A stretch of DNA of 64,000 nt from positions 7,754-71,753 of the forward strand of contig JAIOSJ010000129.1 of NCBI GenBank assembly GCA_021107705.1, written 5' to 3'. The position numbers and the translations under genes were made by a program. This document shows, piece by piece, positions 5,726 to 62,541 of the stretch (positions are counted from its first letter, which is position 1; the number at the start of each line of letters is the position of its first letter). This DNA is from Thermoanaerobaculales bacterium. Its GTDB lineage: Bacteria > Acidobacteriota > Thermoanaerobaculia > Thermoanaerobaculales > Sulfomarinibacteraceae. Below the pieces are notes generated by a model. The model saw only the letters and a program-made list of their open reading frames with translations, made no database searches and had not been told where the DNA came from.

Positions 5726-6270
5726 TGGCCGTCGTAGAGACAGCTCAAGGTTCAAGGCAGCCGATGCCGGGCCTCCTCCGGATTCTCCTGGAGGCGATCG
5801 CGGTGAGCGCGGTCGCCGTGGTGATCTCCCTGCTGTTCAACGCCCTACGCCCCGCAGGTCTGGAGTTGATCGCACGGACCCCGTACCAGATCCTGGTTCC
5901 GTGTCCAGAGCCGGGCGGGCCGGTCCAGGTCGTGCAGCCGACCAACCCCTGGATCCTCTCGGCACGCACCTTTCTCGTCGATGCCCGTTCGCCGCAGGAG
6001 TTCGACCTTTGGCACCTTCCAAAGGCGGTCAACCTGCCATATGACTGGTTGGATCCGGTGCCCGAGGACCGCCTCCTCGAGCTTGCGAAAAGCATCGCCG
6101 CCAGCGGCGCCAATCGGGTGGCGGTATACGGCGACGGCGGCCGGCCGGACAGTGGCGAGCACCTCGGCAAGGAGATCTCGGGACGCGGCATCAAGAACGT
6201 GTTCTTCGTGGCGGGCGGGGCGCCGACCATGTTAGCCCGACCTTCTCACCACAGGTCGGAGGAGCGATGA
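5722..6270 (+). CDS. Membrane-anchored rhodanese-homology domain protein, apparently lacking the catalytic Cys
   Basis: 182 aa with one N-terminal TM (LLRILLEAIAVSAVAVVISLLF). The rhodanese-like part reads FLVDARSPQEFDLWHLPKAVNLPY...RVAVYGDGGRPDSGEHLGKEISGRGIKNVFFVAGG. The position normally occupied by Cys in the C-X-X-G-X-R loop reads G (VYGDGGR). Confidence 0.65.
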   Translation: MMAVVETAQGSRQPMPGLLRILLEAIAVSAVAVVISLLFNALRPAGLELIARTPYQILVPCPEPGGPVQVVQPTNPWILSARTFLVDARSPQEFDLWHLPKAVNLPYDWLDPVPEDRLLELAKSIAASGANRVAVYGDGGRPDSGEHLGKEISGRGIKNVFFVAGGAPTMLARPSHHRSEER

Positions 6271-6737
6271 GGGCGACCCGCCTCGCAGCCTGGCTCGCGG
6301 TGCCGGCACGCTGGTATCTCGGTGTGGTCTTCGTCGGCGCCTGCCTCCACAAGATTGCCGATCCGGGGTCCTTTGCTCTCGATATCGCCACCTACGACAT
6401 CCTTCCGCTCGCGCTCGTCAATCTGGTTGCGATCACGCTCCCGTGGATCGAGCTGGGCGCCGGCGGTATGCTGTTCGCCGGCTGGCGGGTTCGCGCCGCC
6501 TCACTTTTGGTGGCCGTCATGATGGCGGTCTTCATCCTCGCCCTGCTCATCGCGCTCACACGGGGACTTGACATGTCCTGCGGGTGCTTCGCGTCACAGG
6601 GCGCCGAGGAGGAAGACCCGATCTCGCGGGTGACGGTACTGCGGGACCTCGTATGGCTCGGGCTCGCATTCTTCGTATTCGCATTCGACCGCGGCCTGCT
6701 CGGTATCAACCGATGGTTGCAGCGGAGATCTCCATGA
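6267..6737 (+). CDS. MauE/DoxX-family integral membrane protein
   Basis: 156 aa with about 4 TM segments. It starts AWLAVPARWYLGVVFVGACLHKIADPGSFALDIATYDILP and carries the SCGCF motif typical of MauE. There are 4-nt start/stop overlaps on both sides. Confidence 0.75.
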   Translation: MRATRLAAWLAVPARWYLGVVFVGACLHKIADPGSFALDIATYDILPLALVNLVAITLPWIELGAGGMLFAGWRVRAASLLVAVMMAVFILALLIALTRGLDMSCGCFASQGAEEEDPISRVTVLRDLVWLGLAFFVFAFDRGLLGINRWLQRRSP

Positions 6738-7588
6738 TCCGTTTCACTATCGCCGTCCTCGGGTTCATCATCTGGACCGGCACGGGGAGCGCCCAAACCC
6801 CGCTGTGCGATGCACTGACCGGAAACGAGCGCCGTCTGGCCGAGCACATTCTCGCCGGCGAGTACCTCTACGACTGTTGTGACGAAACCATCAGCCGGTG
6901 CCTTGAGGCACAGCCGACCTGTTCGCTCGCAGTTCGTCTCGCCGACAACGTGTGTCGGCGGGTCGCCGCCGGCCAAGATGAGACGCGGATTCGCCGCGCG
7001 CTGTCGCGCCGCGCACGCAGCATGGTCGGCGGTGGGAAGCCCGCCGAGATCGATCTCGCGGCGGCACCCAGCATCGGCCCCGACGACGCGCCGGTGACCG
7101 TGGTGGTCTACGCCTGCGCCCGCTGCCCCTACTGCACTATCCTGGTTCCGGCCCTCTACGAAGCAATTATTACCGGCCAACTCAACGATGAGGTCCGGCT
7201 CGCCTTTCGCACCTTCCCGATCCGCGGTCACAAGGGCTCAACCACCGCCGGCCTCGGCTTCGTCGCCGCGGCGGAAATGAACACGTTCTGGCCCTTCATG
7301 CTGCACGCCTACGATCACTTTGACGAGTATTCGCCGGAGCGGCAGGTCGAGTGGGCGGAGGAGATCGGGTTCGAGCGCGATGCCTTCGAGACACGGGTTT
7401 CCGACCCGGCGACGCGCGATGCGCTGGTGGTGAGAAAGAAGGAGGGCCTCGTCAACGGGGTCAAGGAGACACCGACTGTCTTCATCAACGGACGCCGCTG
7501 GGTCGGCGACCTGGAAACCGCCGAGCTGCTGGACGCAATTGAAGAAGAAGCAGCACGAGTCAAGGGGGAAATATGGCTTACGGATTAA
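6734..7588 (+). CDS. Secreted DsbA-family thiol:disulfide oxidoreductase with an extra Cys-rich N-terminal segment
   Basis: I take ATG 6734 as the start, in frame within track ORF 6584..7588 and overlapping the MauE stop as ATGA. It gives a signal peptide MIRFTIAVLGFIIWTGTGSAQ. The thioredoxin-fold motif is VVVYACARCPYCTIL and the DsbA-like tail is TPTVFINGRRW. Confidence 0.8.
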   Translation: MIRFTIAVLGFIIWTGTGSAQTPLCDALTGNERRLAEHILAGEYLYDCCDETISRCLEAQPTCSLAVRLADNVCRRVAAGQDETRIRRALSRRARSMVGGGKPAEIDLAAAPSIGPDDAPVTVVVYACARCPYCTILVPALYEAIITGQLNDEVRLAFRTFPIRGHKGSTTAGLGFVAAAEMNTFWPFMLHAYDHFDEYSPERQVEWAEEIGFERDAFETRVSDPATRDALVVRKKEGLVNGVKETPTVFINGRRWVGDLETAELLDAIEEEAARVKGEIWLTD

Positions 7589-8704: not shown

Positions 8705-10330
8705 ATGGACGGGTTTGCCGCCCACGATGCTCCCGGATGGGCTGCCCTGGCGGAGGGATTGATCCTCCTCACCACAGCCCTTGGCTTGGGCGCGGCGACC
8801 TCGCGCCTGCGTCTCGGGCCGACCGTCGGCTACATCGCGGCCGGCGCCCTGCTCGGACCGCACGGCCTTCGCCTGCTTGGCGACGCACCCGGTCTGCATT
8901 CGGTCACCGAACTCGGGGTCACGCTGCTCCTGTTCGCCATCGGACTCGAGTTCCCCTGGCGCGTGCTGCGCAGCCTGGGTCGAGGGCCACTCCTTGGCGG
9001 CGGCGGCCAAATCCTCCTCACCGCCCTTGTCGGGTTGGGGATCTCCCGCGCTGTCGGAGCGTCCACCGGCACTGCTCTGGCTGTGGGCGCGGTGCTGGCA
9101 CTGTCGAGCACCGCCTCAGTTCTGCGCACCCTGAGCGGCCGAACCGAAACCGACACCGTGCACGGACGACTGACGGTGTCAGTGCTCATCCTCCAGGACC
9201 TGGCCCTCGTCCCCTTGCTCCTTCTGGTCGCGGCCATGACCCATTCCGGCTCACCGAGCGCGATCACACTGGCGATAGGCTTGTCGATCGGCCTCACACT
9301 GGTCCTCGCCGCAGTCCTGATGATCTTGGCAAAGGTGGTCATGCCTCGGGTGCTCACCGCCACCTCGAGCCTCGCTCACCGGGAACTCGCCATTCTCCTC
9401 GCCCTGGTCACCGCCACCGGCGCCGCCTACTTCGCCCACCGCCTTGGACTGTCGCCCGCGATGGGCAGCTTTCTCGCCGGCATGCTGCTGGCCGACTCCC
9501 CCTTCGCGCTGCAGTTGCGCTCCGACGTCGAGGCACTCAAGGCGATCTTTCTGGCCCTGTTCTTCGTTTCCATCGGTTTCCTGTTCAACGGCGCCTGGGT
9601 GGTGCAGCACCCGGTCCAGGTGGCCCTGGCTACCGCCGGGGTGCTCCTGTTCAAGACCCTGACCGCATCAGCCGCCTTGATCGTTTTTGGTGCACCGCGT
9701 CGGGCTGCGTTCGCGGCAGGGATCTGTCTCGCCCAGATCGGCGAGTTCTCATACGTCCTGGCCCTACAGGCAAGCAGTTTCGGACTCTTCTCCCCCGACA
9801 CCATGGCCCTGATCGTGGCTGCCCTGGTCCTGACCCTGGCCGCCACTCCTCTCCTCGTTGCCTTGGGGGCCCGTGTCTCCCTGCCCACCGCGACCGTCGC
9901 CAGCAGTGACACCGCGCAGAACGCATCGACTCCTCACCGGGTCGTGGTGATCGGCTTCGGCCCAGTTGGTGCAGCCACAGCCGCCGAGGCCCTTCGATCG
10001 GGGCGAGAGATCACGGTCATCGAGCTCAACCCGCGACTTGTCGGCCAGGCCCGCAGCGAGGGATTCGAGGTCCACCTCGGCGACGCCACCCACCCGGAGG
10101 TTCTACGACACGCCCACGTCGGTGATGCGGCCGCGGTGGCAGTGACGGTCCCCGACCACCGTGCCGCCGCCCTTATCATCCAACTGGTCCGCATCCTCGC
10201 CCCCGAGGCGCTGGTGGTCGCCCGGTCCCGTTACCACCTCCATACCACCGGCCTGCACAACGCCGGCGCCGATCACGTGGTGGACGAGGAGCAGGAGGTG
10301 GGGGCGATGCTCGCCCGGCTGGGCCTCTAA
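8705..10330 (+). CDS. CPA2-family monovalent cation:proton antiporter with C-terminal RCK/TrkA-N domain (KefB/KefC-like)
   Basis: 541 aa and multi-TM, with LGPTVGYIAAGALLGPHGL, ELGVTLLLFAIGLEF and ILQDLALVPLL. The C-terminal Rossmann part reads VVVIGFGPVGAATAAEAL...VARSRY. Confidence 0.85.
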   Translation: MDGFAAHDAPGWAALAEGLILLTTALGLGAATSRLRLGPTVGYIAAGALLGPHGLRLLGDAPGLHSVTELGVTLLLFAIGLEFPWRVLRSLGRGPLLGGGGQILLTALVGLGISRAVGASTGTALAVGAVLALSSTASVLRTLSGRTETDTVHGRLTVSVLILQDLALVPLLLLVAAMTHSGSPSAITLAIGLSIGLTLVLAAVLMILAKVVMPRVLTATSSLAHRELAILLALVTATGAAYFAHRLGLSPAMGSFLAGMLLADSPFALQLRSDVEALKAIFLALFFVSIGFLFNGAWVVQHPVQVALATAGVLLFKTLTASAALIVFGAPRRAAFAAGICLAQIGEFSYVLALQASSFGLFSPDTMALIVAALVLTLAATPLLVALGARVSLPTATVASSDTAQNASTPHRVVVIGFGPVGAATAAEALRSGREITVIELNPRLVGQARSEGFEVHLGDATHPEVLRHAHVGDAAAVAVTVPDHRAAALIIQLVRILAPEALVVARSRYHLHTTGLHNAGADHVVDEEQEVGAMLARLGL

Positions 10331-10389
10331 CCTACTTCTCACTGCACCTTTCCGGTTTCAGGGCTGACATCGGTGAGAAGTGCGGGCTA
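10328..10389. mobile_element. MITE copy a (minimal ~58-bp form: two terminal inverted repeats plus a short loop), TA-flanked
   Basis: The sequence is TA-ACCTACTTCTCAC...GGTGAGAAGTGCGGGC-TA. The right end matches the family TIR and the left end is degenerate. The left TA is part of the antiporter TAA stop (10328-10330). The element sits between convergent genes. Confidence 0.6.
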
Positions 10390-10409
10390 AAGATCTTGTT
10401 GGGGCATCT

Positions 10410-12013: not shown

Positions 12014-12050
12014 CGCGCCGCAGCTGATCATTGGTGAAAAATGCGGGTTA
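12014..12050. mobile_element. MITE copy b: solo right end (truncated copy)
   Basis: CCGCAGCTGATCATTGGTGAAAAATGCGGGT-TA matches the right sub-terminal block and TIR of copies c, d and e. I found no convincing left TIR. The terminal T plus TA forms the TAA stop (12048-12050) of the adjacent minus-strand gene. Confidence 0.5.
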
Positions 12051-13418
12051 GCGTCCCAGCAAAAAGACGGCGTCTCCGGTGATGCCATCGACGCGGCTTG
12101 CGTACACCAGCACGTTCCGATCCAGGAAGCTTCCTCCTTCAGACGTAGCCAATGCCGATACCCTCAAGACTATTTGCTCATGATCCGCAATCTCGGGAAT
12201 GAGCGTTTCAATTCTGTTGACCTGGTGGAATCCGAAAGGAGGCACTGTGACCGTCCCGCTACCAAAAATAGTCGATCCGGTCGGTGACCACGCCCTGATG
12301 GTAACCTCGACCTCTGATGGTCCGAGATTTGCGATGCCCAGGTTGGTTCTGTTATTGGCGTCGGTCGCCACCAGGTGAAGCGTTCTTTGCCAGGAGTCCC
12401 AGACCCGCACGACATCATCCCGAAGCATCCGGTCTTCCTCCACCAGGGGAACAGTTTGGCCGAAGACGCCCTCCCCTCCAACGTTAGCGACGCGTGCGGT
12501 GACCGCTGCCTTCGGGGCCGTGGTTAATACCTCAAGCCACCCCTTTGTCTCGTGGATCCCGAAAAGCTCGGGGAGCACATCGTCGTAACGCACACTCTGA
12601 CTGCGATCTAGGTCGAGTCGCCGGACGGTGAAGTTCACCGAACCGTCGTGCCCACTCTCGGTGAAATAGAGCCAGATGGTGGTCGGTTCATCCTGGGAGG
12701 CCGTGACCTCGAGTTCGGTGACCCAGCGGGTTTCGGCATCACCGGCCAAAGAGGCCACCACTGGGATGCACCGCTTGATGTGGCGTTTGACGGGGCGCTG
12801 GTCGATGGGGTCCGGGATGTCCGCATCCACTTCGAGCCGGACATCCCGAATGTAGAAGAAGTCCTCCCGGTCGTCTCCGTCGTTGGCCTCGGTAAGCTGG
12901 GCGCGGATCACTACCCGGCCCTGGTCGCTGCTGTACTGGCCTGACGGGATATTCGGGGCGATCTGGGAGGTCAGATCGGCCGACAGCTCCGAGCCCCTTT
13001 CGATGGATCCGTCCATCGCGGTCTCTTGATTGAGGTCTTCCGTGGCCCAGCCGCCATGAGGATCTACCGACGGGCACCCCATGAGGCCGATCACCCTTCC
13101 CGCCACAACCGGTCCGAGCGCGCTGGGGTCGGCGTAGACAGTATCGATGCCAATACGGAGGACCGCCGACGTGATTTGAGATCCCGGCGGAAGGAACGAC
13201 AGATCGAAGCCGAAGACGGCCACGACATATTGGTTTTGCGTGGAGTCGCCGATAAACGGCACAACGCCCTCGAAGCGCGGAACGCCGTCTTCCGTCACGC
13301 GGATGTGGCCGATTTGACTTGGAGTTACCCGGAACGATTCCGCCCCGGCGGTTTGGCTCCCGATCAGGAAAGCGAGGGCGAGACCTAACAAACAGGTGGT
13401 GACAGGCCGGAATTGCAT
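12048..13418 (-). CDS. Secreted hypothetical protein; its C-terminal ~230 aa are paralogous to the C-terminus of ORF 38403..40673
   Basis: 456 aa with a signal peptide (LLGLALAFLIGSQTAGA). The C-terminal region starts CIPVVASLAGDAETRWVTELEVT and ends ...YASRVDGITGDAVFLLGR. Compare FWIPVASHAPGAQGSAWRTDLGLL ... YGSVVDNITNDPTTMAVVR in the other protein. Confidence 0.6.
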   Translation of the reverse strand: MQFRPVTTCLLGLALAFLIGSQTAGAESFRVTPSQIGHIRVTEDGVPRFEGVVPFIGDSTQNQYVVAVFGFDLSFLPPGSQITSAVLRIGIDTVYADPSALGPVVAGRVIGLMGCPSVDPHGGWATEDLNQETAMDGSIERGSELSADLTSQIAPNIPSGQYSSDQGRVVIRAQLTEANDGDDREDFFYIRDVRLEVDADIPDPIDQRPVKRHIKRCIPVVASLAGDAETRWVTELEVTASQDEPTTIWLYFTESGHDGSVNFTVRRLDLDRSQSVRYDDVLPELFGIHETKGWLEVLTTAPKAAVTARVANVGGEGVFGQTVPLVEEDRMLRDDVVRVWDSWQRTLHLVATDANNRTNLGIANLGPSEVEVTIRAWSPTGSTIFGSGTVTVPPFGFHQVNRIETLIPEIADHEQIVLRVSALATSEGGSFLDRNVLVYASRVDGITGDAVFLLGR

Positions 13419-22381: not shown

Positions 22382-22635
22382 CGTCGTCCAGCGTAACCTA
22401 TTCCGTGTCCCCGCGCTGCCATTCACCGGGTTCAGGTACACTGGCTACTCGCCCGCTGTGGTCGGTCTGGTTCAAAATTCCAGATCGTCCGCATCGACCT
22501 TTTCATCGAGATAGACGCAACAGGGCCCATCTGTCAGCCGCAGTAAACGACCATCCCCACGGATCCAGACGCCGAACCGAACCGCGCGGATTCGGGGACA
22601 GTCGTCCTGCCGGTGGCCCGGGAGGTGACTCAGAG

Positions 22636-22848
22636 ATGGCACGAAACTCCGGAGCATACAAGTTCGAGAAGCGACGTAAAGAACTGGAAAAAAAGAAGAA
22701 AAAAGAACAGAAGAGGTTGGCGAGACAGGCTCGCAAGGAAGGTGATGAGGGCGCCGACGAACAGGCTGAGGGCGCCGACGAACAGGCTGAGGGCGCCGAC
22801 GAACAGGCTGAGGGCGCCGACGAGGGCGTCACAGACAGCGAAGACTGA
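22636..22848 (+). CDS. Small (70-aa) Lys/Glu-rich protein with an acidic tandem-repeat tail
   Basis: GGAGGTG lies 8 nt before ATG 22636. The protein is MARNSGAYKFEKRRKELEKKKKKEQKRLARQARKEGDEGADEQAEGADEQAEGADEQAEGADEGVTDSED. I recognise no family. Confidence 0.5.
   Translation: MARNSGAYKFEKRRKELEKKKKKEQKRLARQARKEGDEGADEQAEGADEQAEGADEQAEGADEGVTDSED
22747..22824 (+). repeat. Perfect 21-bp tandem repeat, 3 full copies plus a partial one (GAGGGCGCCGACGAACAGGCT)
   Basis: Read directly at 22747-22767, 22768-22788 and 22789-22809, then 15 nt of a fourth copy. It encodes (EGADEQA)x3 in the small ORF. Confidence 0.9.
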
Positions 22849-22865
22849 AACCGACAGCGGCTCCT

Positions 22866-23047
22866 TAACCCGACTTTCTCACCAATCTTCTACTGCGGTC
22901 GGGGATGCACCGTACCCAGCGACGTTTTCTCGCTTCGGGATGCTCGACGGACTGTCGAGTACGACTCCGCGTCCCTCAGGTCGAAAACACCACTGAGCAC
23001 AGCACCTCCCCGCCCTCGCGACGAACCTTGGTGAGAAGTGCAGGCTA
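22866..23047 (-). mobile_element. MITE copy c (182 bp including flanking TA), inverted relative to copy d
   Basis: The sequence is TA-ACCCGACTTTCTCACCAA...TTGGTGAGAAGTGCAGGC-TA. Its reverse complement aligns to copy d over the full length with 15 substitutions and no indel (hand alignment). Confidence 0.8.
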
Positions 23048-23077
23048 ATCTCTAAACTGGACAGTCTGGATTGCTGA

Positions 23078-24663: not shown

Positions 24664-24784
24664 TCGTGCTCTATGATTGGCCAATGTGGTTGATCTCCGT
24701 GTCGGTGGGCAGGCGGCCCACCCCAATTTGACTACAGGAGCCGACCTCTCGGAGGCAGCGGTTCCGGGAGACGAGAAGAGAGAT

Positions 24785-25138
<354 letters not shown>

Positions 25139-25157
25139 TCGGGTTTCCCGCTTACTC

Positions 25158-27365: not shown

Positions 27366-27438
27366 CAAGCTCCATCCGCCGTCATGAGCGACGACAAATC
27401 CACTGTAGCAGGAACGGGAACGGCCAGGCTCCGAACAT

Positions 27439-27548
27439 CGACCTCTTTGACCCTTTTGACCTTTTCGATTTCATCGACCCTCAAAGACTTCTATTGATTC
27501 ATTTTTGCGCCTTTTTGTGGCTATTTCTTCGATCCGTGCAAAGGCTAA
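27439..27548 (+). repeat. T-tract/TTGACC array, copy B1 (AT-rich intergenic repeat family)
   Basis: CGACCTCTTTGACCCTTTTGACCTTTTCGATTTC...TTCATTTTTGCGCCTTTTTGTGGCTATTTCTTCGATCCGTGCAAAGGCTA shares a ~50-nt core with 34801-34850 and 43070-43126. It lies in the divergent region between the protease and nuclease genes. Confidence 0.75.
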
Positions 27549-29846: not shown

Positions 29847-29957
29847 AAGAGCCGAATATATAGGCGCAAAGATAAATCCAATACGGGCAACGAGTCGCTG
29901 TGCCTGTGTTTTGGAGCGAGAGCCAAGCTATCGCGCTTGAGTTCAGGTTTCCTGCGT

Positions 29958-29990
29958 CTTCGACCTGTTTGACCCTTTTGACCTTTATAA
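29958..29990 (+). repeat. TTGACC array fragment, copy B4, immediately left of MITE d
   Basis: CTTCGACCTGTTTGACCCTTTTGACCTTTATAACC closely matches the left part of B1 (CGACCTCTTTGACCCTTTTGACCTTTT). Confidence 0.6.
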
Positions 29991-30002
29991 CCCTAGAGCC
30001 CT

Positions 30003-30184
30003 TAGCCCGCACTTCTCACCAATGTTCGTCGCGAGGGCGGAGAGGTGCTGTGTCCAGTGGTGTTTTCGACCTGAGGGACGCGCAGTCGTACTCGACAGTC
30101 CGTCGAGCATCCCGATGCGAGAAAACGCCGCTGGGCGCAGTGCATCGCCGGCCGCAGTAGAAGATTGGTGAGAAATGCGGGTTA
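30003..30184 (+). mobile_element. MITE copy d (182 bp including flanking TA), reference copy
   Basis: The sequence is TA-GCCCGCACTTCTCACCAA...TTGGTGAGAAATGCGGGT-TA, and the 20-nt ends are inverted repeats with 2 mismatches. The right-end T plus TA is the TAA stop (30182-30184) of the response-regulator gene. Confidence 0.8.
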
Positions 30185-31681
30185 TGCCTCTGCCATGACA
30201 CGCAGGAGGTCTTCCATGCCGGTCATCTGGTCCGTGTGAAGGCGCCAGCGCTTCTCCAACTTCAGGACTTTCTGCGCCCGGACAACCGCCTCGGGGCCTG
30301 ATGCCGCGAGGATGCCCCATTGGGACGTCGGCGCTGTTTCGACCCACTCGAGGACCCATCCCAGCTCGTCGATCCTCTCCGGGTCACCCACCCACACCAT
30401 CACGACGGGATAGACGGCCATCCTGGCTCTGACCTGTTTCAGGGCCACCGGAGACTCCAGAGACGCTACGTGTATTACCAACCCGACGCCAGGCCCCCGA
30501 AGGGCGAGGGTCGCGACCCTCCCTCCCTGCCAGGCTGCCGTCATCGACTCGCCGGAGGCCGCAAGACTCTCCGGCGGCAGGGCCTGTCGGAGCTCGAGGA
30601 AGGCGCCATGCACCGTCGGTTCAACCAAAATCAGAACATGAGGCAACTCCGGGGAGAAGCCACGGCGCTCCACGGCCCTGATCACGGCTTCGACGGCCGA
30701 ACCAAGGCTCTCGCTCGTCCCGCCGTCGGCGTCTTCGGCCGTCCTTTCGATCGTGCCGACATCAACGAAGCCACGGTGCACCATGAATCGAATGGCCAAG
30801 GCTACTTTTTTCGGCGCCCATCGCTCCATCGCTTCCAGACCCCGGATGGAGATGCCGGGGTTGGATCGAATTTCGTCGAACACACCCTCCGTCGGAATCG
30901 AGCCCCATTCCGCCGCCGTGGCCGGAGGTTGATCCTTTCCCGGGCGGATGGAGAGAGAGGCGTGATCGCCAACCTCGGACCACCGTGAGAGTTCGTCGAT
31001 CAGCCAGGCAGCAATGAACATCACCTTCTGGATCTCGATCTCGGAACCTGTTGCACCCGCCGCCGCGGGAGGCCCCTGCCCGTCGAAGCGAAACGTCCCC
31101 CTCTTCAGATCCATCATGGCCAGGATCGCCTCGATGCCCACGAGGCGACCCCATGCGGCCGCCGTCGGCCGACCACCGACCACGACAAGCGTCCCCCTTC
31201 GGTCCCCGGATCCGATTTCCAAGACACCGTGCGTACCGCTGTGCAACAGGCTTTGAATCACCTCGGCGAAGCCCAAGGTTTCCAGGCGTCCCTGGAATTC
31301 GGATCGGTCCGAAAGACGGCCGTCGATCAATCTATTGAGCCGCAGCAGCAATTCTTCCGGATCAAAGGGCTTGCCTATGTATTCATCCGCGCCACCCCGC
31401 AGGCCCTTGACACGGTCTTCGACCTCACCGAGGGAGGAGAGCATCAACACCGGAAGTCTCTTCGTCTCGGGGTTGGCGTGGAGGTCGTCAAGAACCTCGA
31501 ATCCCGAACGGCCCGGCATCATCACGTCCAGGATGACCGCATCGACCTGGTGAGCCGCCGCCAGGTGCGCTGCCTCCTGGGGATTGGCAGTCGCAACGAC
31601 TTCGTGCCCGCCGCCTCTCAGGGTGTACTCCACCATTTTGAGCGTCATCGCATCGTCATCGACGGTCAAGATCACGGCCAT
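30182..31681 (-). CDS. Response regulator: REC domain + DUF4388 domain + uncharacterised C-terminal ~250 aa
   Basis: The REC part reads ILTVDDDAMTLKMVEYTL...DAVILDVMMPGRSGFEVL...PVLMLSSLGE...GADEYIGKPF. The DUF4388-like part reads FQGRLETLGFAEVIQSLLHSGTHGVLEI...GIEAILAMMDLKRGTFRF. Confidence 0.8.
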   Translation of the reverse strand: MAVILTVDDDAMTLKMVEYTLRGGGHEVVATANPQEAAHLAAAHQVDAVILDVMMPGRSGFEVLDDLHANPETKRLPVLMLSSLGEVEDRVKGLRGGADEYIGKPFDPEELLLRLNRLIDGRLSDRSEFQGRLETLGFAEVIQSLLHSGTHGVLEIGSGDRRGTLVVVGGRPTAAAWGRLVGIEAILAMMDLKRGTFRFDGQGPPAAAGATGSEIEIQKVMFIAAWLIDELSRWSEVGDHASLSIRPGKDQPPATAAEWGSIPTEGVFDEIRSNPGISIRGLEAMERWAPKKVALAIRFMVHRGFVDVGTIERTAEDADGGTSESLGSAVEAVIRAVERRGFSPELPHVLILVEPTVHGAFLELRQALPPESLAASGESMTAAWQGGRVATLALRGPGVGLVIHVASLESPVALKQVRARMAVYPVVMVWVGDPERIDELGWVLEWVETAPTSQWGILAASGPEAVVRAQKVLKLEKRWRLHTDQMTGMEDLLRVMAEA

Positions 31682-34800: not shown

Positions 34801-34850
34801 TTCATTTTTGTGCCTTTTTGTGGCTATTCCTGGAGATTTGCAAACAGCTA
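34801..34850 (+). repeat. T-tract repeat core, copy B2
   Basis: The sequence is TTCATTTTTGTGCCTTTTTGTGGCTATTCCTGGAGATTTGCAAACAGCTA. This copy has the same core as B1 and B3 and the same orientation. About 60 nt upstream is CCATCCGCCGTCAATG, which also occurs as CCATCCGCCGTCATG left of B1 (27372-27386). Confidence 0.7.
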
Positions 34851-43020: not shown

Positions 43021-43126
43021 GTCTTGACCTCTTTGATTCTTTGACTCTTTTGACCTTTTTGACCCTATCTTTGTGCCTTTTTGCGCCTTTTTGTGGCTAT
43101 TTCTTGGAGTTTTGCAAAAAGCTATT
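43021..43126 (+). repeat. T-tract/TTGACC array, copy B3 (longest: about 11 phased units)
   Basis: The sequence is GTCTTGACCTCTTTGATTCTTTGACTCTTTTGACCTTTTTGACCCTATCTTTGTGCCTTTTTGCGCCTTTTTGTGGCTATTTCTTGGAGTTTTGCAAAAAGCTATT. T-runs recur roughly every 9-10 nt. It lies between convergent genes and runs into the TAG stop at 43125-43127. Confidence 0.8.
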
Positions 43127-45958: not shown

Positions 45959-46021
45959 ATCTCACCATTCCTTGCTGCGGCCCAATGAATATGGGAAGAC
46001 ATGGGGAGATTGTAATGGAAC

Positions 46022-46202
46022 TAGCTCGCACTTCTCACCAACGTCCGAAGCGAAAGGTTCAAGACGCCGTGAGATTCGGTGTTCTCGCAAGATGAGCGAG
46101 AGAAGTAGTACTTGCGGTACGTCGAGCGAGCGAATCGAGAAAGCGCCGAAGATTATGGTGTATTGGGCCTTGCAGCCGGAGATTGATGAGAAATGCGGGC
46201 TA
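46022..46202 (+). mobile_element. MITE copy e (181 bp including flanking TA)
   Basis: The sequence is TA-GCTCGCACTTCTCACCAA...TTGATGAGAAATGCGGGC-TA. The right TA is part of the TAG stop (46200-46202) of the DUF2752-like gene. The element lies 64 nt upstream of the FAD/Fe-S gene start. Confidence 0.75.
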
Positions 46203-46703
46203 GATACCCGCCAAAACAAAACCCCAGTTCACGAAGAGGGCCAAGGCGAGCAGGGCGAGGCTACGATCAAGCCATTTCCCGTGACGATCTATCAATGACC
46301 GGAAAGACCTCAGCTGGAGCCAGGCCGCGTGGCGCAGGACCTGCAGTGCCACAAAGAGCATCACGACCCAGCCGAGTCGGTGATAGGACAAACTCTCGCC
46401 GAAGGCGCCACGACCGAGAGCGATCCACGAGCGGGTCAGACCACAACCCGGACATGGCGTTCCCGTAGCCCGGCGGAATGCGCATGCCACGGGAAAGCCG
46501 TCCTTATGAGAAGCAGGCATCAATGGCTCAAATACACCCAGAAACAGGGCAGCCGCCAAAGCGCCGGAGCACAGAAAAAACAAAAGGCGGTGGGTGGAGG
46601 CATGAACCTCTTCACCGCCCAATTCTTGATTAGCCAAAGGCCGGTTTGACTTCCTTGTTGAGCAGAACGACCAACGCCCAGATCCCGAAAGGGATACCGA
46701 CAC
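46200..46703 (-). CDS. DUF2752-like membrane protein (CPGCGLTR motif); start uncertain
   Basis: The protein reads ...LLFFLCSGALAAALFLGVF...ACAFRRATGTPCPGCGLTRSWIAL...GWVVMLFVALQVL. The 5' part of the track ORF overlaps the upstream gene, so the true start is probably internal (for example TTG 46622). Confidence 0.6.
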   Translation of the reverse strand: MSVSLSGSGRWSFCSTRKSNRPLANQELGGEEVHASTHRLLFFLCSGALAAALFLGVFEPLMPASHKDGFPVACAFRRATGTPCPGCGLTRSWIALGRGAFGESLSYHRLGWVVMLFVALQVLRHAAWLQLRSFRSLIDRHGKWLDRSLALLALALFVNWGFVLAGI

Positions 46704-47584: not shown

Positions 47585-48574
47585 TCACCGCCGTTTCGAG
47601 GATCCGGACGAACGAGAGGGCGTGGAAGAACGGCCCGACGAAGAGGATCGGCCGCCTCCGGAGGACGATCTCGCCGACGGTGAAGACCGACCGCTTCCGG
47701 AGGACGAGTTCGCCGACGGGGAAGACCGACCACTACCGGAGGACGAACTCGCCGACGAAGACGAGCGCGACGGTGAGGAGGCATTCGGCGCGCTCCCCCT
47801 TGAAGGCGTTGTCGATGTTCTCCCAGCCGAAGCCGACGGGCGGGATGAGGTGGCCCGCGGGCTCCCGGAGCTGGTCACACTCGGTCGCGATGGATAAGAA
47901 CCACGGCTCACCGCGCCCGATCTTCCGGTAGCCGACCCCACCGATCTCGGGATCACAATCGGCGCACGGCTTGATGAAGAGCTGGTTGAGGGAGTAATCG
48001 GCGTGCGCCCGGATCCGGATCCGACCATCGACCGCGAACTCGGTGCTGTCCGGCTTCCGGTGCTCGGCGCTGCACGACCAAGAACCGGAGAGCGGCTCGT
48101 GCCGGCCGGTGCGAGCGACCTGCCCGAAGACGGCGCCGTTGCCCCACCAGAACTCGAGGGAGCGCTCGTCCTCCCACTCGGTGTGCTGCGTGCCCCGGAA
48201 GAACCGACGACCGTGCCGCGGTATCCCGAAGGCGAACGATAATAGTTCGGCGCCGAGGGTCGGCTCGATGCCCGGTTCGAATCACCGGAACTCACATTTC
48301 GACTGAGAGACGGCGCTCCCGATCTTCCGGAAACAGCTGAACTGCGGCTTTCGCTCCCCGGTTCTGCCGGCCTTGAATTCCGCGCAATCATGCTTCCACC
48401 ACTCCGCGGAGTTGCTGCAGCCAGGGCCTCGTCACGACTCAGACCCCCATCACGAGCGAGGACGCGAGAAACGTCGGTATCGCTTCGCCCCTCGACCTCG
48501 CGAAAGACCCTGGTGAACTCACCGGCCGGCGCCGCTCGGCCCGGCCTTTGGGTTCGCAGAGGGCCTGAGGTCAC
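47585..48574 (-). CDS. Ser/Arg/Gly/Pro-rich low-complexity protein with 13-aa tandem repeats (strand assignment tentative)
   Basis: 329-codon ORF whose GTG start overlaps the upstream stop (GTGA). The C-terminus reads SSSGSGRSSPSAN-SSSGSGRSSPSAR-SSSGGGRSSSSGR, encoded by a ~39-bp DNA repeat (47658-47765). The antisense acidic ORF 47622..47897 is much shorter. Confidence 0.4.
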   Translation of the reverse strand: MTSGPLRTQRPGRAAPAGEFTRVFREVEGRSDTDVSRVLARDGGLSRDEALAAATPRSGGSMIARNSRPAEPGSESRSSAVSGRSGAPSLSRNVSSGDSNRASSRPSAPNYYRSPSGYRGTVVGSSGARSTPSGRTSAPSSSGGATAPSSGRSLAPAGTSRSPVLGRAAPSTGSRTAPSSRSMVGSGSGRTPITPSTSSSSSRAPIVIPRSVGSATGRSGAVSRGSYPSRPSVTSSGSPRATSSRPSASAGRTSTTPSRGSAPNASSPSRSSSSASSSSGSGRSSPSANSSSGSGRSSPSARSSSGGGRSSSSGRSSTPSRSSGSSKRR

Positions 48575-56551: not shown

Positions 56552-56646
56552 ACTTCAAATATGGTCCAACCCCCGGTCTTTGTCAAGACCTCACAAAGAT
56601 TGTCAAGGAAATCCAAATCGGACTTCAGACTGAGGGGCTAAAGGGC

Positions 56647-56879
56647 TAACCCGACCTTCTCACCGGGTTTCGTTGCGAGGGCTGCGAAGGGTAGTTAAAT
56701 GTTCGCTGGCACCGCTTTGCGGCTTGCGTCTCTCCGCCTCCGGCTCCGAGGTCAGGTTTTTTGGAAATTGGGCGACGCAGTCGTAGTTGCACTCCGCCGA
56801 GGAGAATGATTTGCGAAAAGCACGACAGATGGCTGCCATACGCCGCCCGTAGCAGACAACCGGTGAGAAGGCCGGGCTA
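56647..56879 (+). mobile_element. MITE copy f (233 bp including flanking TA; longer variant)
   Basis: The sequence is TA-ACCCGACCTTCTCACC...GGTGAGAAGGCCGGGC-TA. It shares internal blocks with d and g: TTCGTTGCGAGGGC, GACGCAGTCGTAGTT, GCGAAAAGCAC, CCGTAGCAGA. Confidence 0.7.
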
Positions 56880-57032
56880 AGAACCCTTCCCAACAGAGCC
56901 TTCCGAAACCATCCTCCTCCTGCACCGTGCCGTTCCTCTCGGTAGACGCCGGTGACAACATCTCCCACTTATCCTCAACCCATTGATCTGTCAGATGGTT
57001 CGAGCTAGAGTGATGTTGCAAGGAGGCTTCTC

Positions 57033-62006: not shown

Positions 62007-62104
62007 CTCACTCGTTTCCTATAACAGCGTTACTGTCGGCATGGGGGGCCTGTGGCTTGATTGTTTCTCTGCTGTTGGCTGGGTTACTGATCGTCAGGAG
62101 ACGT

Positions 62105-62365
62105 TAGCCCGACCTTCTCACCAGTTTTCGTCGCGAGGGTCGTGAGACGTCGTACACAGCCGGTTCATTCTTGATTTGAACGACACAGTCGTAGTTCACA
62201 CTCCGTAGGGACCTTGAGAATAGCCCAACAGGACGGTCACGCCAACGGCGTGAGACCCCCGGAGGGGTCTGCGTGGGCTGGAGGAGGACACGTCGAGAAA
62301 AGCACGGCTGAGTGCTGCGCAAAGCGGTCCGTCCGCAAGCAGATTATGGTCAGAAATGAGGAATA
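62105..62365 (+). mobile_element. MITE copy g (261 bp, longest variant, degenerate right end)
   Basis: The sequence is TA-GCCCGACCTTCTCACC...AGATTATGGTCAGAAATGAGGAA-TA. The left TIR is intact and the right TIR is decayed. It shares internal blocks TTCGTCGCGAGGGT, GACACAGTCGTAGTT, GTCGAGAAAAGCAC and CCGCAAGCAGATTATGG. Confidence 0.6.
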
Positions 62366-62541
62366 TAGGGGCTCAGACTGGTGAGCTTGCCATCGCTGCA
62401 CGAGGAGGTGTATTCTGGATTTGTCGGTTCTCGACCTCAAAACGTCAGGCCGGGCAGGGGAGTGATTTCGCCGAAGTGGGCCGGTGGGTCCACCCGAAAA
62501 ACAAGGTAGAAGTGACAACAAGGAATGTGGAGGAGACAACA

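What the first reader, a model, noticed from the sequence alone, without database searches (positions are those of the whole stretch)
30003..30184. A TA-flanked MITE family with ~20-nt terminal inverted repeats: seven copies in 64 kb and no transposase in sight
The same element ends recur at 10328-10389 (a, minimal form), 12014-12050 (b, solo right end), 22866-23047 (c), 30003-30184 (d), 46022-46202 (e), 56647-56879 (f) and 62105-62365 (g).

The ends read TA-(G/A)CCCG(C/A)(A/C)(C/T)TTCTCACC(AA) ... (TT)GGTGAGAA(A/G)(T/G)(G/C)CGGG(C/T)-TA, which is an inverted repeat of about 20 nt. Every recognisable end is bounded by TA. Copies c and d are both exactly 182 bp and copy e is 181 bp. The reverse complement of c differs from d by 15 substitutions and no indel in my hand alignment.

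All copies are intergenic and none carries a plausible ORF. TA-bounded, TIR-bearing, non-autonomous elements of this size are what IS630/Tc1-mariner-derived MITEs look like (the Neisseria Correia elements are the classic analogue). This particular TIR and element is not one I recognise.
Basis: partly seen in the sequence, partly recalled or inferred. Interest (0 to 1): 0.6.

Follow-up and report, generated by a model that had tools for sequence, protein, structure and literature searches.

The report
Hairpin MITE mobilised by IS1380 transposase
The repeats are real copies of a tiny non-autonomous transposon, but it belongs to the IS1380 (piggyBac-related) family and duplicates four bases (YTAR), not the IS630/mariner type; unusually, its ~176-nt body is a strand-specific hairpin kept by compensatory mutations in at least five bacterial phyla.

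Summary
The end motif CCCG-NNN-TTCTCACC occurs 14 times in the window against 0.9 expected.

It is a MITE with no transposase in the window. It is not IS630/Tc1-like. In other genomes the same ends bound 1.65-1.75-kb elements that encode IS1380-family transposases. The flanks are 4-bp direct repeats (CTAG, TTAG, CTAA, TTAA), as in IS1380A (TCGA) and piggyBac (TTAA).

YTAR is 5-14-fold depleted here: 75 sites in 64 kb, 12 of them beside element ends. In four of the eight copies a neighbouring gene's stop codon lies inside the duplication.

The interior is unexpected. It matches none of the 16 full-length ISs examined. Yet the ~176-nt form recurs in Acidobacteriota, Gamma- and 'Delta'-proteobacteria, Planctomycetota, Gemmatimonadota and Marinimicrobia. 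It forms one long hairpin: 36 of 50 pairs show compensatory changes, and G·U outnumbers A·C 119 to 18 on one strand.

There is no Rfam family and no literature hit. What the hairpin does is unknown, and no clean empty site was found.

The parts
6232..6250 (+). It sits in a 36-bp gap between divergent ORFs.
10327..10390 (+). Copy a, the minimal 56-nt form (10331-10386), flanked by CTAA/CTAA. The left TIR is decayed. The TAA stop of ORF 8705-10330 lies in the left duplication.
   Evidence: (17.7 bits)
12014..12051 (+). Copy b, a 5'-truncated copy. It keeps the 3' subterminal motif GCCGCAGCTGA and the right TIR GGTGAAAAATGCGGG (12033-12047), then TTAG. The stop codon of ORF 12048-13418 (-) lies in that TTAG.
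22865..23048 (-). Copy c, full 176-nt element (22869-23044), sense strand minus, flanks TTAA/CTAA. It lies between convergent genes (an unknown ORF and a DEAD-box helicase).
   Evidence: (158 bits on - against 48 on +)
30002..30185 (+). Copy d (the finding), full 176-nt element (30006-30181), sense strand plus, flanks TTAG/TTAT. The TAA stop of the response-regulator gene 30182-31681 (-) lies in the right flank.
   Evidence: (163 bits on + against 58 on -)
46021..46203 (+). Copy e, 175-nt element (46025-46199), sense strand plus, flanks CTAG/CTAG. The TAG stop of the DUF2752 gene 46200-46703 (-) lies in the right duplication. Its interior is only 45% identical to d, yet it has the same length and fold.
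   Evidence: (121 bits)
56646..56880 (+). Copy f, 227-nt element (56650-56876) with an internal insertion of about 50 nt, sense strand plus, flanks CTAA/CTAA. It was not used to train the model.
   Evidence: (68 bits on + against 27 on -)
62104..62366 (+). Copy g, a degenerate 255-nt element (62108-62362). The left flank TTAG and left TIR are intact. It has an internal insertion of about 85 nt. The right TIR is decayed (GGTCAGAAATGAGGA) and the right flank is ATAT. It lies downstream of EF-G.
   Evidence: (14.6 bits)

Best explanation
This is a family of miniature inverted-repeat transposable elements (MITEs) that use the ends of an IS1380-family insertion sequence. IS1380 is the bacterial relative of eukaryotic piggyBac.

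Each copy is bounded by 15-17-bp TIRs, CCCGCAYTTCTCACC(A)...(T)GGTGAGAAATGCGGG. I infer that an IS1380-family DDE transposase, supplied in trans from a full-length element elsewhere or formerly in the genome, binds these ends and inserts the element at a YTAR tetranucleotide, duplicating all four bases.

YTAR is 5-14-fold depleted in this roughly 60% G+C Thermoanaerobaculales genome. In four of the eight window copies the flanking YTAR contains a gene's stop codon, so I infer that surviving target sites lie largely at stop codons and between genes. Copies therefore accumulate at gene 3' ends. The duplication regenerates the TAR stop codon, so insertion is nearly harmless.

The body is not a deletion remnant of any sampled IS. 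It is a conserved stem of about 80 bp with an apical stem-loop, GGCGUAS-loop-SUACGUYGAG, and two purine-rich subterminal loops, CGURGCGAG and GCCGCAGUAGA. It is maintained by compensatory substitutions and tolerates G·U but not A·C on one defined strand.

I infer that this fold acts in a single-stranded state of the element itself (RNA or ssDNA) and is needed for the element's propagation or retention rather than for any particular host gene. The reason is that its polarity is independent of the orientation of neighbouring genes.

Shown: TIR identity with IS1380-family elements, the 4-bp direct repeats, YTAR depletion and occupancy, covariation, and strand asymmetry.
Inferred: trans-mobilisation, and the role of the hairpin.
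For: Partner family
The loci included pairs about 1.7 kb apart that enclose 458-475-aa ORFs.
- Those ORFs match Pfam DDE_Tnp_1_4 (519-539 bits) and NCBIfam transpos_IS1380 (389-397 bits, cut-off 180).
- They are about 50% identical to IS1380A and 57-59% identical to annotated IS1380-family transposases on Pseudomonas, Rhizobium, Sinorhizobium and Bradyrhizobium plasmids.

Ends of annotated ISs
- IS1380A: TCGA|CGCGGAAATCTCACA...TGTGAGAAATCCGCG|TCGA.
- pKF715A: CTAG|CCCGCATTTCTCACA...GGG|CTAG.
- R. leguminosarum and NGR234: TTAG|...|TTAG.

Duplication length
- Statistics on 48 elements favour a 4-bp direct repeat over TA plus a TIR base.
- YTAR counts in the window: CTAG 16 (226 expected), TTAG 17, CTAA 21, TTAA 21. 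Twelve of these 75 sites flank element ends.
- A stop codon lies inside the duplication in 4 of 8 window copies and 11 of 34 family members, in either orientation (6 against 5).

Hairpin
- Copy d folds at -104.9 kcal/mol (z = -9.6) on the + strand and -83 on the - strand.
- RNAalifold on 21 sequences gives 50 pairs, 36 with changes on both sides.
- 91% of cells are paired against 70% after shuffling and 36-46% after sliding the partner; 0 of 500 shuffles reach the observed values.
- G·U 119 against A·C 18.
- The apex motif sits on the better-folding strand in 29 of 29 elements of 166-282 nt.
- Held-out copies score far higher on the sense strand.
- Copies d and e share only 45% interior identity but the same length and fold.
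Against: - No clean empty site was obtained. The only other contigs carrying the same genes are the same strain (99.96% identical) and already contain the element. Relatives at 70-78% amino-acid identity lack the element after the orthologous stop codon, but they are not syntenic downstream.
- No partner transposase is in the window, and the rest of the source genome could not be searched.
- None of the 16 full-length ISs examined contains the hairpin core. The true parent, or the transposase that recognises the subterminal motifs, is therefore unidentified.
- In c and d the two flanks differ at one base each. That is compatible with age (c and d are 8% diverged) but is not proof of duplication.
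- The hairpin's role is inference. The fold asymmetry persists with DNA parameters, so RNA and ssDNA cannot be told apart. No promoter-like or terminator-like site lies in or around copy d.
Confidence: 0.85

Rival explanations
1. It is an IS1380-type MITE, but the hairpin has no single-strand function. The body is a fold-back (one arm copied in inverse), and pairing is kept or renewed by repeated fold-back formation or arm-to-arm conversion in master copies. The strand bias would then be inherited from a few ancestors.
For: Near-perfect palindromes with the same TIRs and no strand asymmetry exist: L008 (265 nt, -214.8/-214.6 kcal/mol) and L027 (263 nt). TIR-only 32-34-nt palindromes flanked by CTAG exist. 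Both show that palindromic derivatives arise readily. The sequences in the alignment are related, which inflates covariation statistics (caveat stated).
Against: G·U occurs at 32 of 50 pair positions against 13 for A·C, 119 cells against 18, across subfamilies that are 45-60% identical. Fold-back renewal predicts perfect Watson-Crick arms and no polarity. Conserved unpaired motifs (the apex and two subterminal loops) and a conserved G·U in the apical stem are asymmetric. Length is held at 175-178 nt across phyla.
Confidence: 0.2
2. One reading: an IS630/Tc1-mariner-derived MITE that duplicates TA, analogous to the Correia elements.
For: TA is invariant next to every recognisable end. The size, TIRs and intergenic density resemble Correia, RUP and ERIC elements (my own knowledge of those families).
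Against: All transposase-bearing elements with these ends are IS1380 family. The direct repeat extends to 4 bp, including non-palindromic TTAG/TTAG and CTAA/CTAA. The prototype IS1380A has homologous TIRs and a TCGA duplication with no TA at all.
Confidence: 0.03
3. A chromosomal structured non-coding RNA gene family (or a REP/REPIN-like hairpin moved by a HUH RAYT through ssDNA) whose ends merely resemble IS1380 TIRs. On this view it is not an IS1380-dependent transposon.
For: Strong covariation and strand polarity. The sense strand is G-rich. A GTAG tetranucleotide sits in the conserved 3' subterminal loop, reminiscent of REP heads (my own knowledge of REP elements).
Against: The 15-17-nt ends match the IS1380-family TIRs of full-length elements (identical in the MAG-borne ISs, one terminal base different in pKF715A), and the same YTAR duplications flank both. 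A MITE abuts a full-length IS and shares one CTAG with it in L001. Genomic contexts are unrelated between copies and genomes. Truncated, minimal and TIR-only derivatives exist. There is no Rfam family. REP elements have no TIR-plus-TSD architecture.
Confidence: 0.05

Closest known systems
IS1380-family insertion sequences (prototype IS1380A of Acetobacter; unnamed copies on P. putida pKF715A, Rhizobium leguminosarum and S. fredii NGR234 plasmids)
   Same: Homologous 15-nt TIRs that start CC/CG and contain TCTCAC. The pKF715A element reads CCCGCATTTCTCACA, which is 14 of 15 identical to copy d's right end. Both give a 4-bp direct target duplication at a T/C-T/C-A/G-A/G palindrome-like site: TCGA for IS1380A; CTAG or TTAG for the others.
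   Different: The window elements are 176 bp rather than about 1.65-1.75 kb. They carry no transposase gene. Their interior shows no similarity to any of the 16 full-length ISs examined beyond 15-40 nt at the ends.
piggyBac superfamily transposons and their non-autonomous derivatives (eukaryotes)
   Same: The transposase lineage is related: IS1380 is used as the prokaryotic outgroup of piggyBac (PMC10813416, PMC10140906). Both duplicate a tetranucleotide with a central TA (TTAA is one of the four sites seen here). Element termini read CCC...GGG (my knowledge of the piggyBac TIR CCCTAGAAAG).
   Different: These are bacterial. The target is relaxed to YTAR, with CTAG preferred. No sequence match to solved piggyBac structures was detectable by phmmer. 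Precise excision was not tested.
Correia elements (Neisseria), ERIC/IRU, RUP: the classical bacterial MITEs
   Same: Short, TIR-bounded, non-coding and very dense in intergenic regions (here 8 copies in 64 kb). The target contains TA. Transcripts can fold into long hairpins. They often sit at gene ends (my own knowledge of these families).
   Different: There is no sequence similarity. The duplication is 4 bp rather than TA. The partner is IS1380 rather than IS630 or unknown. The classical families are confined to a genus or family, whereas this one spans at least five phyla with a conserved, covarying core.
REP/REPIN elements mobilised by RAYT (HUH) transposases
   Same: Strand-specific hairpins that work as single strands. 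High copy number, intergenic.
   Different: REPINs have neither TIRs matching a DDE-transposase IS nor target duplications. No RAYT link was seen or specifically sought here.

Membership tests
MITE (miniature inverted-repeat transposable element) | Short (<300-400 bp), no coding capacity | tested here: met
   175-255 nt. The stems covary, which is incompatible with coding. Only spurious overlapping ORFs are present.
MITE (miniature inverted-repeat transposable element) | Terminal inverted repeats shared with an autonomous IS | tested here: met
   The same 15-17-nt TIRs bound 1.65-1.75-kb transposase-bearing elements in L001, L030, L032, L048 and L057 and on annotated plasmids. None was found in this window.
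MITE (miniature inverted-repeat transposable element) | Direct target-site duplication | tested here: met
   4-bp YTAR direct repeats. 34 of 48 pairs are identical, including 8 non-palindromic ones. Fisher p = 5e-6 and p = 0.006.
MITE (miniature inverted-repeat transposable element) | Multiple dispersed copies in unrelated contexts | tested here: met
   8 copies or fragments in 64 kb, next to unrelated housekeeping genes. A short-read assembly contig breaks 27 nt after the gene next to copy d, inside the element.
MITE (miniature inverted-repeat transposable element) | Presence/absence polymorphism (empty sites) | tested here: inconclusive
   The same-strain contig is filled. Relatives at 70-78% amino-acid identity lack the element after the orthologous stop codon, but synteny is lost downstream. 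No junction-spanning hits were found among the loci, and the metagenome scan gave no syntenic relatives.
IS1380-family-derived element | TIRs homologous to the IS1380 family (start CC/CG, TCTCAC core) | tested here: met
   Direct comparison with IS1380A and eight annotated IS1380-family copies.
IS1380-family-derived element | 4-5-bp target duplication | tested here: met
IS1380-family-derived element | Cognate IS1380 transposase present in the same genome / demonstrated trans-mobilisation | not testable with these tools
   Absent from the 64-kb window. The rest of the MAG could not be fetched.
   The duplication extends to the bases flanking TA. The related IS1380A duplicates TCGA.
   All partners found are IS1380 family.
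Structured RNA family | Covariation supporting a consensus secondary structure | tested here: met
   36 of 50 pairs have changes on both sides. 0 of 500 shuffles reach the observed values, and slid controls pair in 36-46% of cells against 91%.
Structured RNA family | Strand specificity (G·U tolerated, A·C not) | tested here: met
   119 against 18. 29 of 29 apex-oriented elements fold better on the same strand. ssDNA would show the same bias.
Structured RNA family | Membership of a described Rfam family | tested here: not met
   No hit at gathering score or at E <= 10 in the window or in 18 loci.
Structured RNA family | Expression as a discrete RNA | not testable with these tools
   No transcriptome data. 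No sigma-70-like promoter or intrinsic terminator in or around copy d.

The most novel reading that the evidence does not exclude
The 176-nt body is a functional, strand-specific structured nucleic acid (RNA, or an ssDNA hairpin) that has adopted IS1380 ends as a vehicle. In effect it would be a mobile structured element that spreads between phyla. Its conserved apical stem-loop and subterminal loops would be recognised by a protein, either the transposase or a host factor, and would be required for its propagation or for an effect on neighbouring transcripts.
Probability: 0.35. Interest if true: 0.75.

Novelty: new member of a known kind. Interest (0 to 1): 0.5.

Why it matters
It corrects the family assignment and gives a concrete, testable pairing. 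A very abundant MITE is matched to a transposase family (IS1380) for which I found no described MITEs in the searchable literature.

It shows that a clade of IS1380 elements targets YTAR with a 4-bp duplication. That is the bacterial counterpart of piggyBac's TTAA rule. It also explains why copies sit on stop codons in G+C-rich genomes where CTAG is almost absent.

For annotation, the element supplies or overlaps the stop codons of real genes, and it breaks short-read assemblies.

The less ordinary aspect is this: a non-autonomous element of fixed length, with a covarying, strand-polar hairpin that owes nothing to the sampled parent ISs, is conserved from Acidobacteriota to Gammaproteobacteria and Marinimicrobia. 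If that fold is functional it would be a rare case of selection on the structure of a MITE itself. The cultured Acanthopleuribacter pedis carries copies and offers a system in which to test it.

Tried and rejected
1. Rfam at gathering score on the whole window, at E <= 10 on copy d, and at gathering score on 18 related loci: nothing except one tRNA.
2. Literature search for the TIR strings (0 papers) and for IS1380 + MITE or piggyBac. No IS1380-derived MITE is described; IS1380 appears only as the piggyBac outgroup.
3. Empty sites:
   - Exact-protein look-up found only the same strain, already filled.
   - Flank-junction BLAST among 120 loci found nothing.
   - The metagenome scan with a gene lying between c and d found relatives at <=75% identity and no synteny.
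   - Homologues of the response regulator at 70-78% identity have no MITE but a different downstream gene.
   - The FAD-oxidase search gave only the source MAG's own protein plus relatives at <=62% identity, and its contig was not retrievable.
4. A paralogous empty site in the TTGACC-repeat family next to copy d: the similarity stops before the insertion point.
5. Search for a parent IS. BLAST of 58 MITEs against 5 full-length ISs, and the covariance model with filters off against 16 ISs, matched only the ends.
6. The 176-nt element against PLSDB plasmids (distant mode) and, by exact TIR pattern, against viral contigs: no match.
7. The transposase against PDB sequences, looking for a direct piggyBac link: no hit by phmmer.
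8. Promoter and terminator consensus scans around copy d: none.
9. Inversion between c and d as an explanation for their mismatched flanks: the flank pattern does not fit, so it was rejected by inspection.
10. The sites at 7198 and 45951 were rejected as chance matches (2 mismatches, no YTAR flank, inside or at the edge of ORFs).
Full report

Yes. The end motif GGTGAGAARKSCGGGY (up to 2 mismatches) occurs 14 times in the 64-kb window against 0.90 expected, and no shuffle reached 14.

- c and d are each 182 bp from TA to TA, and e is 181 bp.
- The reverse complement of c differs from d by 15 substitutions and no indel (183 nt at 92%; 15 mismatches and 0 gaps).

I add one solo end at 6232-6250. 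I reject the weak matches at 7198 and 45951 as chance. I refine g to 62108-62362.

There are no tRNA genes and no Rfam hits in the window. There is no transposase: tblastn gives a best E-value of 0.8.

The flanking genes are ordinary chromosomal ones: DEAD-box helicase, endonuclease I, a hybrid histidine kinase with its response regulator, an FAD oxidase, a SpoU methylase, OmpA and EF-G.

The source is a Thermoanaerobaculales (Acidobacteriota) MAG. The window's FAD oxidase is 100% identical to an NCBI protein so named, and the response-regulator homologues are labelled Acidobacteria.

**2. Which transposon family?**

About 280 chance matches are expected for such a pattern in 596 Gb (my own arithmetic). 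Single hits therefore mean little, but inverted pairs at fixed distances cannot be chance.

Pairing the ends showed many short elements. About 176-177 nt is commonest, and other sizes between about 125 and 405 nt also occur, with clusters near 240 and 262 nt. It also showed five pairs 1.70-1.75 kb apart.

Those long elements carry a single 458-475-aa ORF. It matches Pfam DDE_Tnp_1_4 (519-539 bits) and NCBIfam transpos_IS1380 (389-397 bits, cut-off 180). The protein is about 50% identical to the prototype IS1380A. It is 57-59% identical to annotated 'IS1380 family transposase' genes on plasmids of Pseudomonas putida KF715, Stutzerimonas, Rhizobium leguminosarum, Sinorhizobium fredii NGR234 and Bradyrhizobium.

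I fetched nine annotated copies and read their ends:

| Element | Ends and flanks |
|---|---|
| IS1380A | TCGA\|CGCGGAAATCTCACA...TGTGAGAAATCCGCG\|TCGA |
| pKF715A | CTAG\|CCCGCATTTCTCACA...TGTGAGAAATGCGGG\|CTAG |
| R. leguminosarum GLR17 | TTAG\|...\|TTAG |
| S. fredii NGR234 | TTAG\|...\|TTAG |
| Four others | CTAG\|...\|CTAG |

The window's TIR is thus an IS1380-family TIR. The element proper begins CCCG and ends CGGG.

**3. TA or four bases?**

I took 48 paired elements with YTAR on both sides.
- The base just outside the left end equals the fourth base outside the right end in 44 of 48 (Fisher p = 5e-6).
- The fourth base left equals the first base right in 37 of 48 (p = 0.006).
- The association expected if these bases belonged to the TIR (G with C, A with T) is not significant (p = 0.18).

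Non-palindromic direct repeats occur in eight MITE or IS pairs (TTAG/TTAG four times, CTAA/CTAA four times), plus two annotated ISs. The inverted pattern TTAG/CTAA occurs once.

In the window:
- e is flanked by CTAG/CTAG.
- f and a are flanked by CTAA/CTAA.
- c (TTAA/CTAA) and d (TTAG/TTAT) each differ at one base, which is compatible with their age.

So the duplication is 4 bp at YTAR. This is the IS1380 habit (4 bp in every copy read here; IS1247 is listed with 5 bp in PMC3281130). It is also the piggyBac habit (TTAA). The literature uses IS1380 as the prokaryotic outgroup of piggyBac.

The IS630/Tc1 'TA' reading is therefore not supported.

**4. Why intergenic and on stop codons?**

YTAR is extremely depleted in this window:

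| Site | Observed | Expected |
|---|---|---|
| CTAG | 16 | 226 |
| TTAG | 17 | 134 |
| CTAA | 21 | 160 |
| TTAA | 21 | 94 |

Twelve of the 75 YTAR sites are flanks of this family.

Every YTAR contains TAA or TAG on at least one strand. In a, b, d and e the stop codon of a flanking ORF lies inside the duplicated tetranucleotide. The response-regulator gene next to d is real and full length: homologues at 78% identity end at the same residue but with TGA.

Across 34 family members analysed with a GC3-based gene caller, 11 have a stop codon in the duplication. The sense 5' side faces the gene in 6 and the 3' side in 5. Divergent-promoter contexts are rare, 2 of 27.

Insertion after YTAR|CCCG keeps the stop codon intact. 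This is a simple reason why such insertions are tolerated (inference).

**5. The body of the element**

BLAST of 58 short elements against five full-length ISs found only the terminal 15-40 nt in common. The covariance model, run without filters on 16 full-length ISs, found no core.

Nevertheless the whole 176-nt element is conserved between phyla:
- d is 80% identical over 183 nt to an Acidobacteriota MAG and 74% to a Thiohalobacter (Gammaproteobacteria) MAG.
- With the TIRs excluded, a Gammaproteobacteria copy is 85% identical to Bryobacterales copies, and an Acidobacteriota copy is 78% identical to a Deltaproteobacteria copy.
- Within the window, d and e share only 45% of interior positions, yet are 176 and 175 nt long.

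The element folds into one long hairpin. Copy d gives -104.9 kcal/mol on the + strand (z = -9.6), but only -83 on the - strand. Among the 176-177-nt members, one strand folds 15-35 kcal/mol better in all but one (L033, 4.5 kcal/mol), and it is the same strand by homology.

An alignment of 21 copies (A1) comes from Acidobacteriota, Gamma- and 'Delta'-proteobacteria, Planctomycetota and the window. Its consensus has 50 pairs, 36 with compensatory changes on both sides.

On the named structure:
- 91.1% of cells pair, against 69.8% after shuffling and 36-46% after sliding the partner.
- 223 cells have double changes, against 83 after shuffling.
- 0 of 500 shuffles reach the observed value on any measure.
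- All 21 pairs of the central helix covary.

G·U pairs outnumber A·C mismatches 119 to 18, at 32 against 13 of the 50 positions.

There are asymmetric conserved pieces:
- an apical stem-loop, GGCGTAS-loop-STACGTYGAG, with a conserved G·U;
- a 5' subterminal CGTRGCGAG;
- a 3' subterminal GCCGCAGTAGA.

The apex motif occurs on one strand only in 29 elements of 166-282 nt. That strand is the better-folding one in 29 of 29. Even a 70-nt derivative keeps the two subterminal motifs.

A covariance model (R1) scores sequences it was not trained on far higher on the sense strand:

| Copy | Sense (bits) | Antisense (bits) |
|---|---|---|
| f (window) | 68 | 27 |
| L066 | 137 | 37 |
| L065 (Marinimicrobia, 45% G+C) | 111 | 30 |
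| L076 (Acanthopleuribacter pedis) | 81 | 31 |

L022 (Gemmatimonadota) scores 104 bits on the sense strand.

**6. What the hairpin means**

The polarity does not follow neighbouring genes. Copies c and d are in opposite orientation 7 kb apart. Stop-codon-abutting copies split 6 to 5. An upstream gene is co-oriented in 20 cases against 10. The constraint therefore looks intrinsic to the element rather than to the expression of a host gene.

The sense strand is G-rich (G 0.36 against C 0.27). The asymmetry also appears with DNA energy parameters, at a mean of -10.8 kcal/mol. RNA and ssDNA therefore cannot be distinguished. There is no sigma-70-like promoter or intrinsic terminator in or around copy d.

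My working inference is that master copies are selected for a single-stranded fold. It could be used for recognition or juxtaposition of the two ends of a very short element, or for the fate of read-through transcripts.

The main alternative is that palindromy is simply regenerated by fold-back events. Perfect palindromes with the same TIRs and no strand bias do exist (L008 and L027), as do TIR-only 32-34-nt palindromes. That alternative does not explain the G·U excess, the asymmetric conserved loops or the fixed length.

**7. What I could not show**

I found no clean empty site:
- The only other contigs carrying the window's genes are the same strain (99.96% identical) and contain the element. 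One short-read contig ends 27 nt after the gene next to copy d, inside the element.
- The metagenome scan returned relatives at <=75% amino-acid identity without synteny.
- Relatives of the HK-RR operon lack any element after the orthologous stop codon, but carry a different downstream gene.

The source contig could not be fetched. Whether this genome holds a partner IS1380 is therefore unknown.

The 176-nt element is absent from PLSDB plasmids. Its exact-TIR form is absent from viral contigs.

**8. Comparison and novelty**

It works like a classical bacterial MITE such as Correia, ERIC or RUP. It meets the tested defining features of a MITE, and specifically of an IS1380-derived one. It fails both tested features of an IS630-derived one.

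I found no paper describing an IS1380-derived MITE or these TIR strings. The library is limited, and ISfinder could not be consulted.

I therefore rate it a new member of a known kind. It has one unusual property that deserves follow-up: a structure-constrained, strand-polar core of fixed length, conserved across at least five phyla.

**Scores**
- Interest: 0.5.
- Confidence that it is an IS1380-type MITE with a 4-bp YTAR duplication: 0.85.
- Probability that the hairpin is itself functional as a single strand: about 0.35 for a specific function, and about 0.65 that it is under selection at all.

Noticed in passing
window 27438-27542, 29951-29995, 34805-34845, 43024-43118; also L155 ~6520-6570 and L157 ~6610-6665: A second intergenic repeat family. 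It has 9-bp-phased TTGACC(N3) direct repeats, followed by TTTTTGYGCCTTTTTGTGGCTATTYC...TTTGCAAA..GCTAAG. The latter motif also occurs in intergenic DNA of relatives at 70-78% amino-acid identity, so it looks like a lineage-specific promoter or operator module. Copy d sits immediately 3' of one TTGACC array.
   Followed up: partly
window, whole: Extreme depletion of CTAG (16 observed, 226 expected, O/E 0.07) and of TTAG, CTAA and TTAA (O/E 0.13-0.22). One in six of the remaining YTAR sites is occupied by an end of this element family.
   Followed up: yes
L106 6576-6607, L103 3261-3294 (also L088 3491-3560, L061 2237-2282): 'Nano' derivatives. Two TIRs separated by only 2-4 nt (32-34 nt in all), still flanked by CTAG. 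There are also 46-70-nt forms; the 70-nt one (L088) keeps the two subterminal motifs. Window copy a (56 nt) belongs to this series.
   Followed up: partly
L001 176-351 and 356-2079: A 176-nt MITE and a full-length IS1380-family element lie head to tail, separated by a single shared CTAG. This is what is expected if one inserted into the other's target duplication.
   Followed up: partly
L008 35-299, L027 2302-2564: 263-265-nt near-perfect palindromes with the same TIRs. They fold at about -200 to -215 kcal/mol equally on both strands, so they show no G·U polarity. They look like young fold-back derivatives and are useful as a contrast to the 176-nt class.
   Followed up: partly
window 25020-25144 (ORF 24677-25138, +): A GGC/GGY triplet-repeat tract that encodes a glycine/tyrosine-rich tail. 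It lies directly beside the DEAD-box helicase gene and may belong to an RGG-type RNA-binding protein.
   Followed up: no
window 22725-22823 (ORF 22405-22848, +): Four tandem 21-nt units, three of them identical, inside the ORF that ends 17 nt before copy c.
   Followed up: no
window 47635-47767: Three tandem 39-nt units (76-84% identical) inside a coding region.
   Followed up: no
L165 (R. leguminosarum Vaf10 plasmid, NZ_CP016288.1 214192-216447): An IS1380-family element appears to be inserted in a group II intron. Annotated ltrA fragments with the same protein accession lie on both sides.
   Followed up: no
L123 8605-8679: The closest metagenomic relative of the window organism (72% amino-acid identity for one gene) carries a short remnant with the apex motif and one TIR core. 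The family is therefore older than the split between these lineages, or it entered both.
   Followed up: partly
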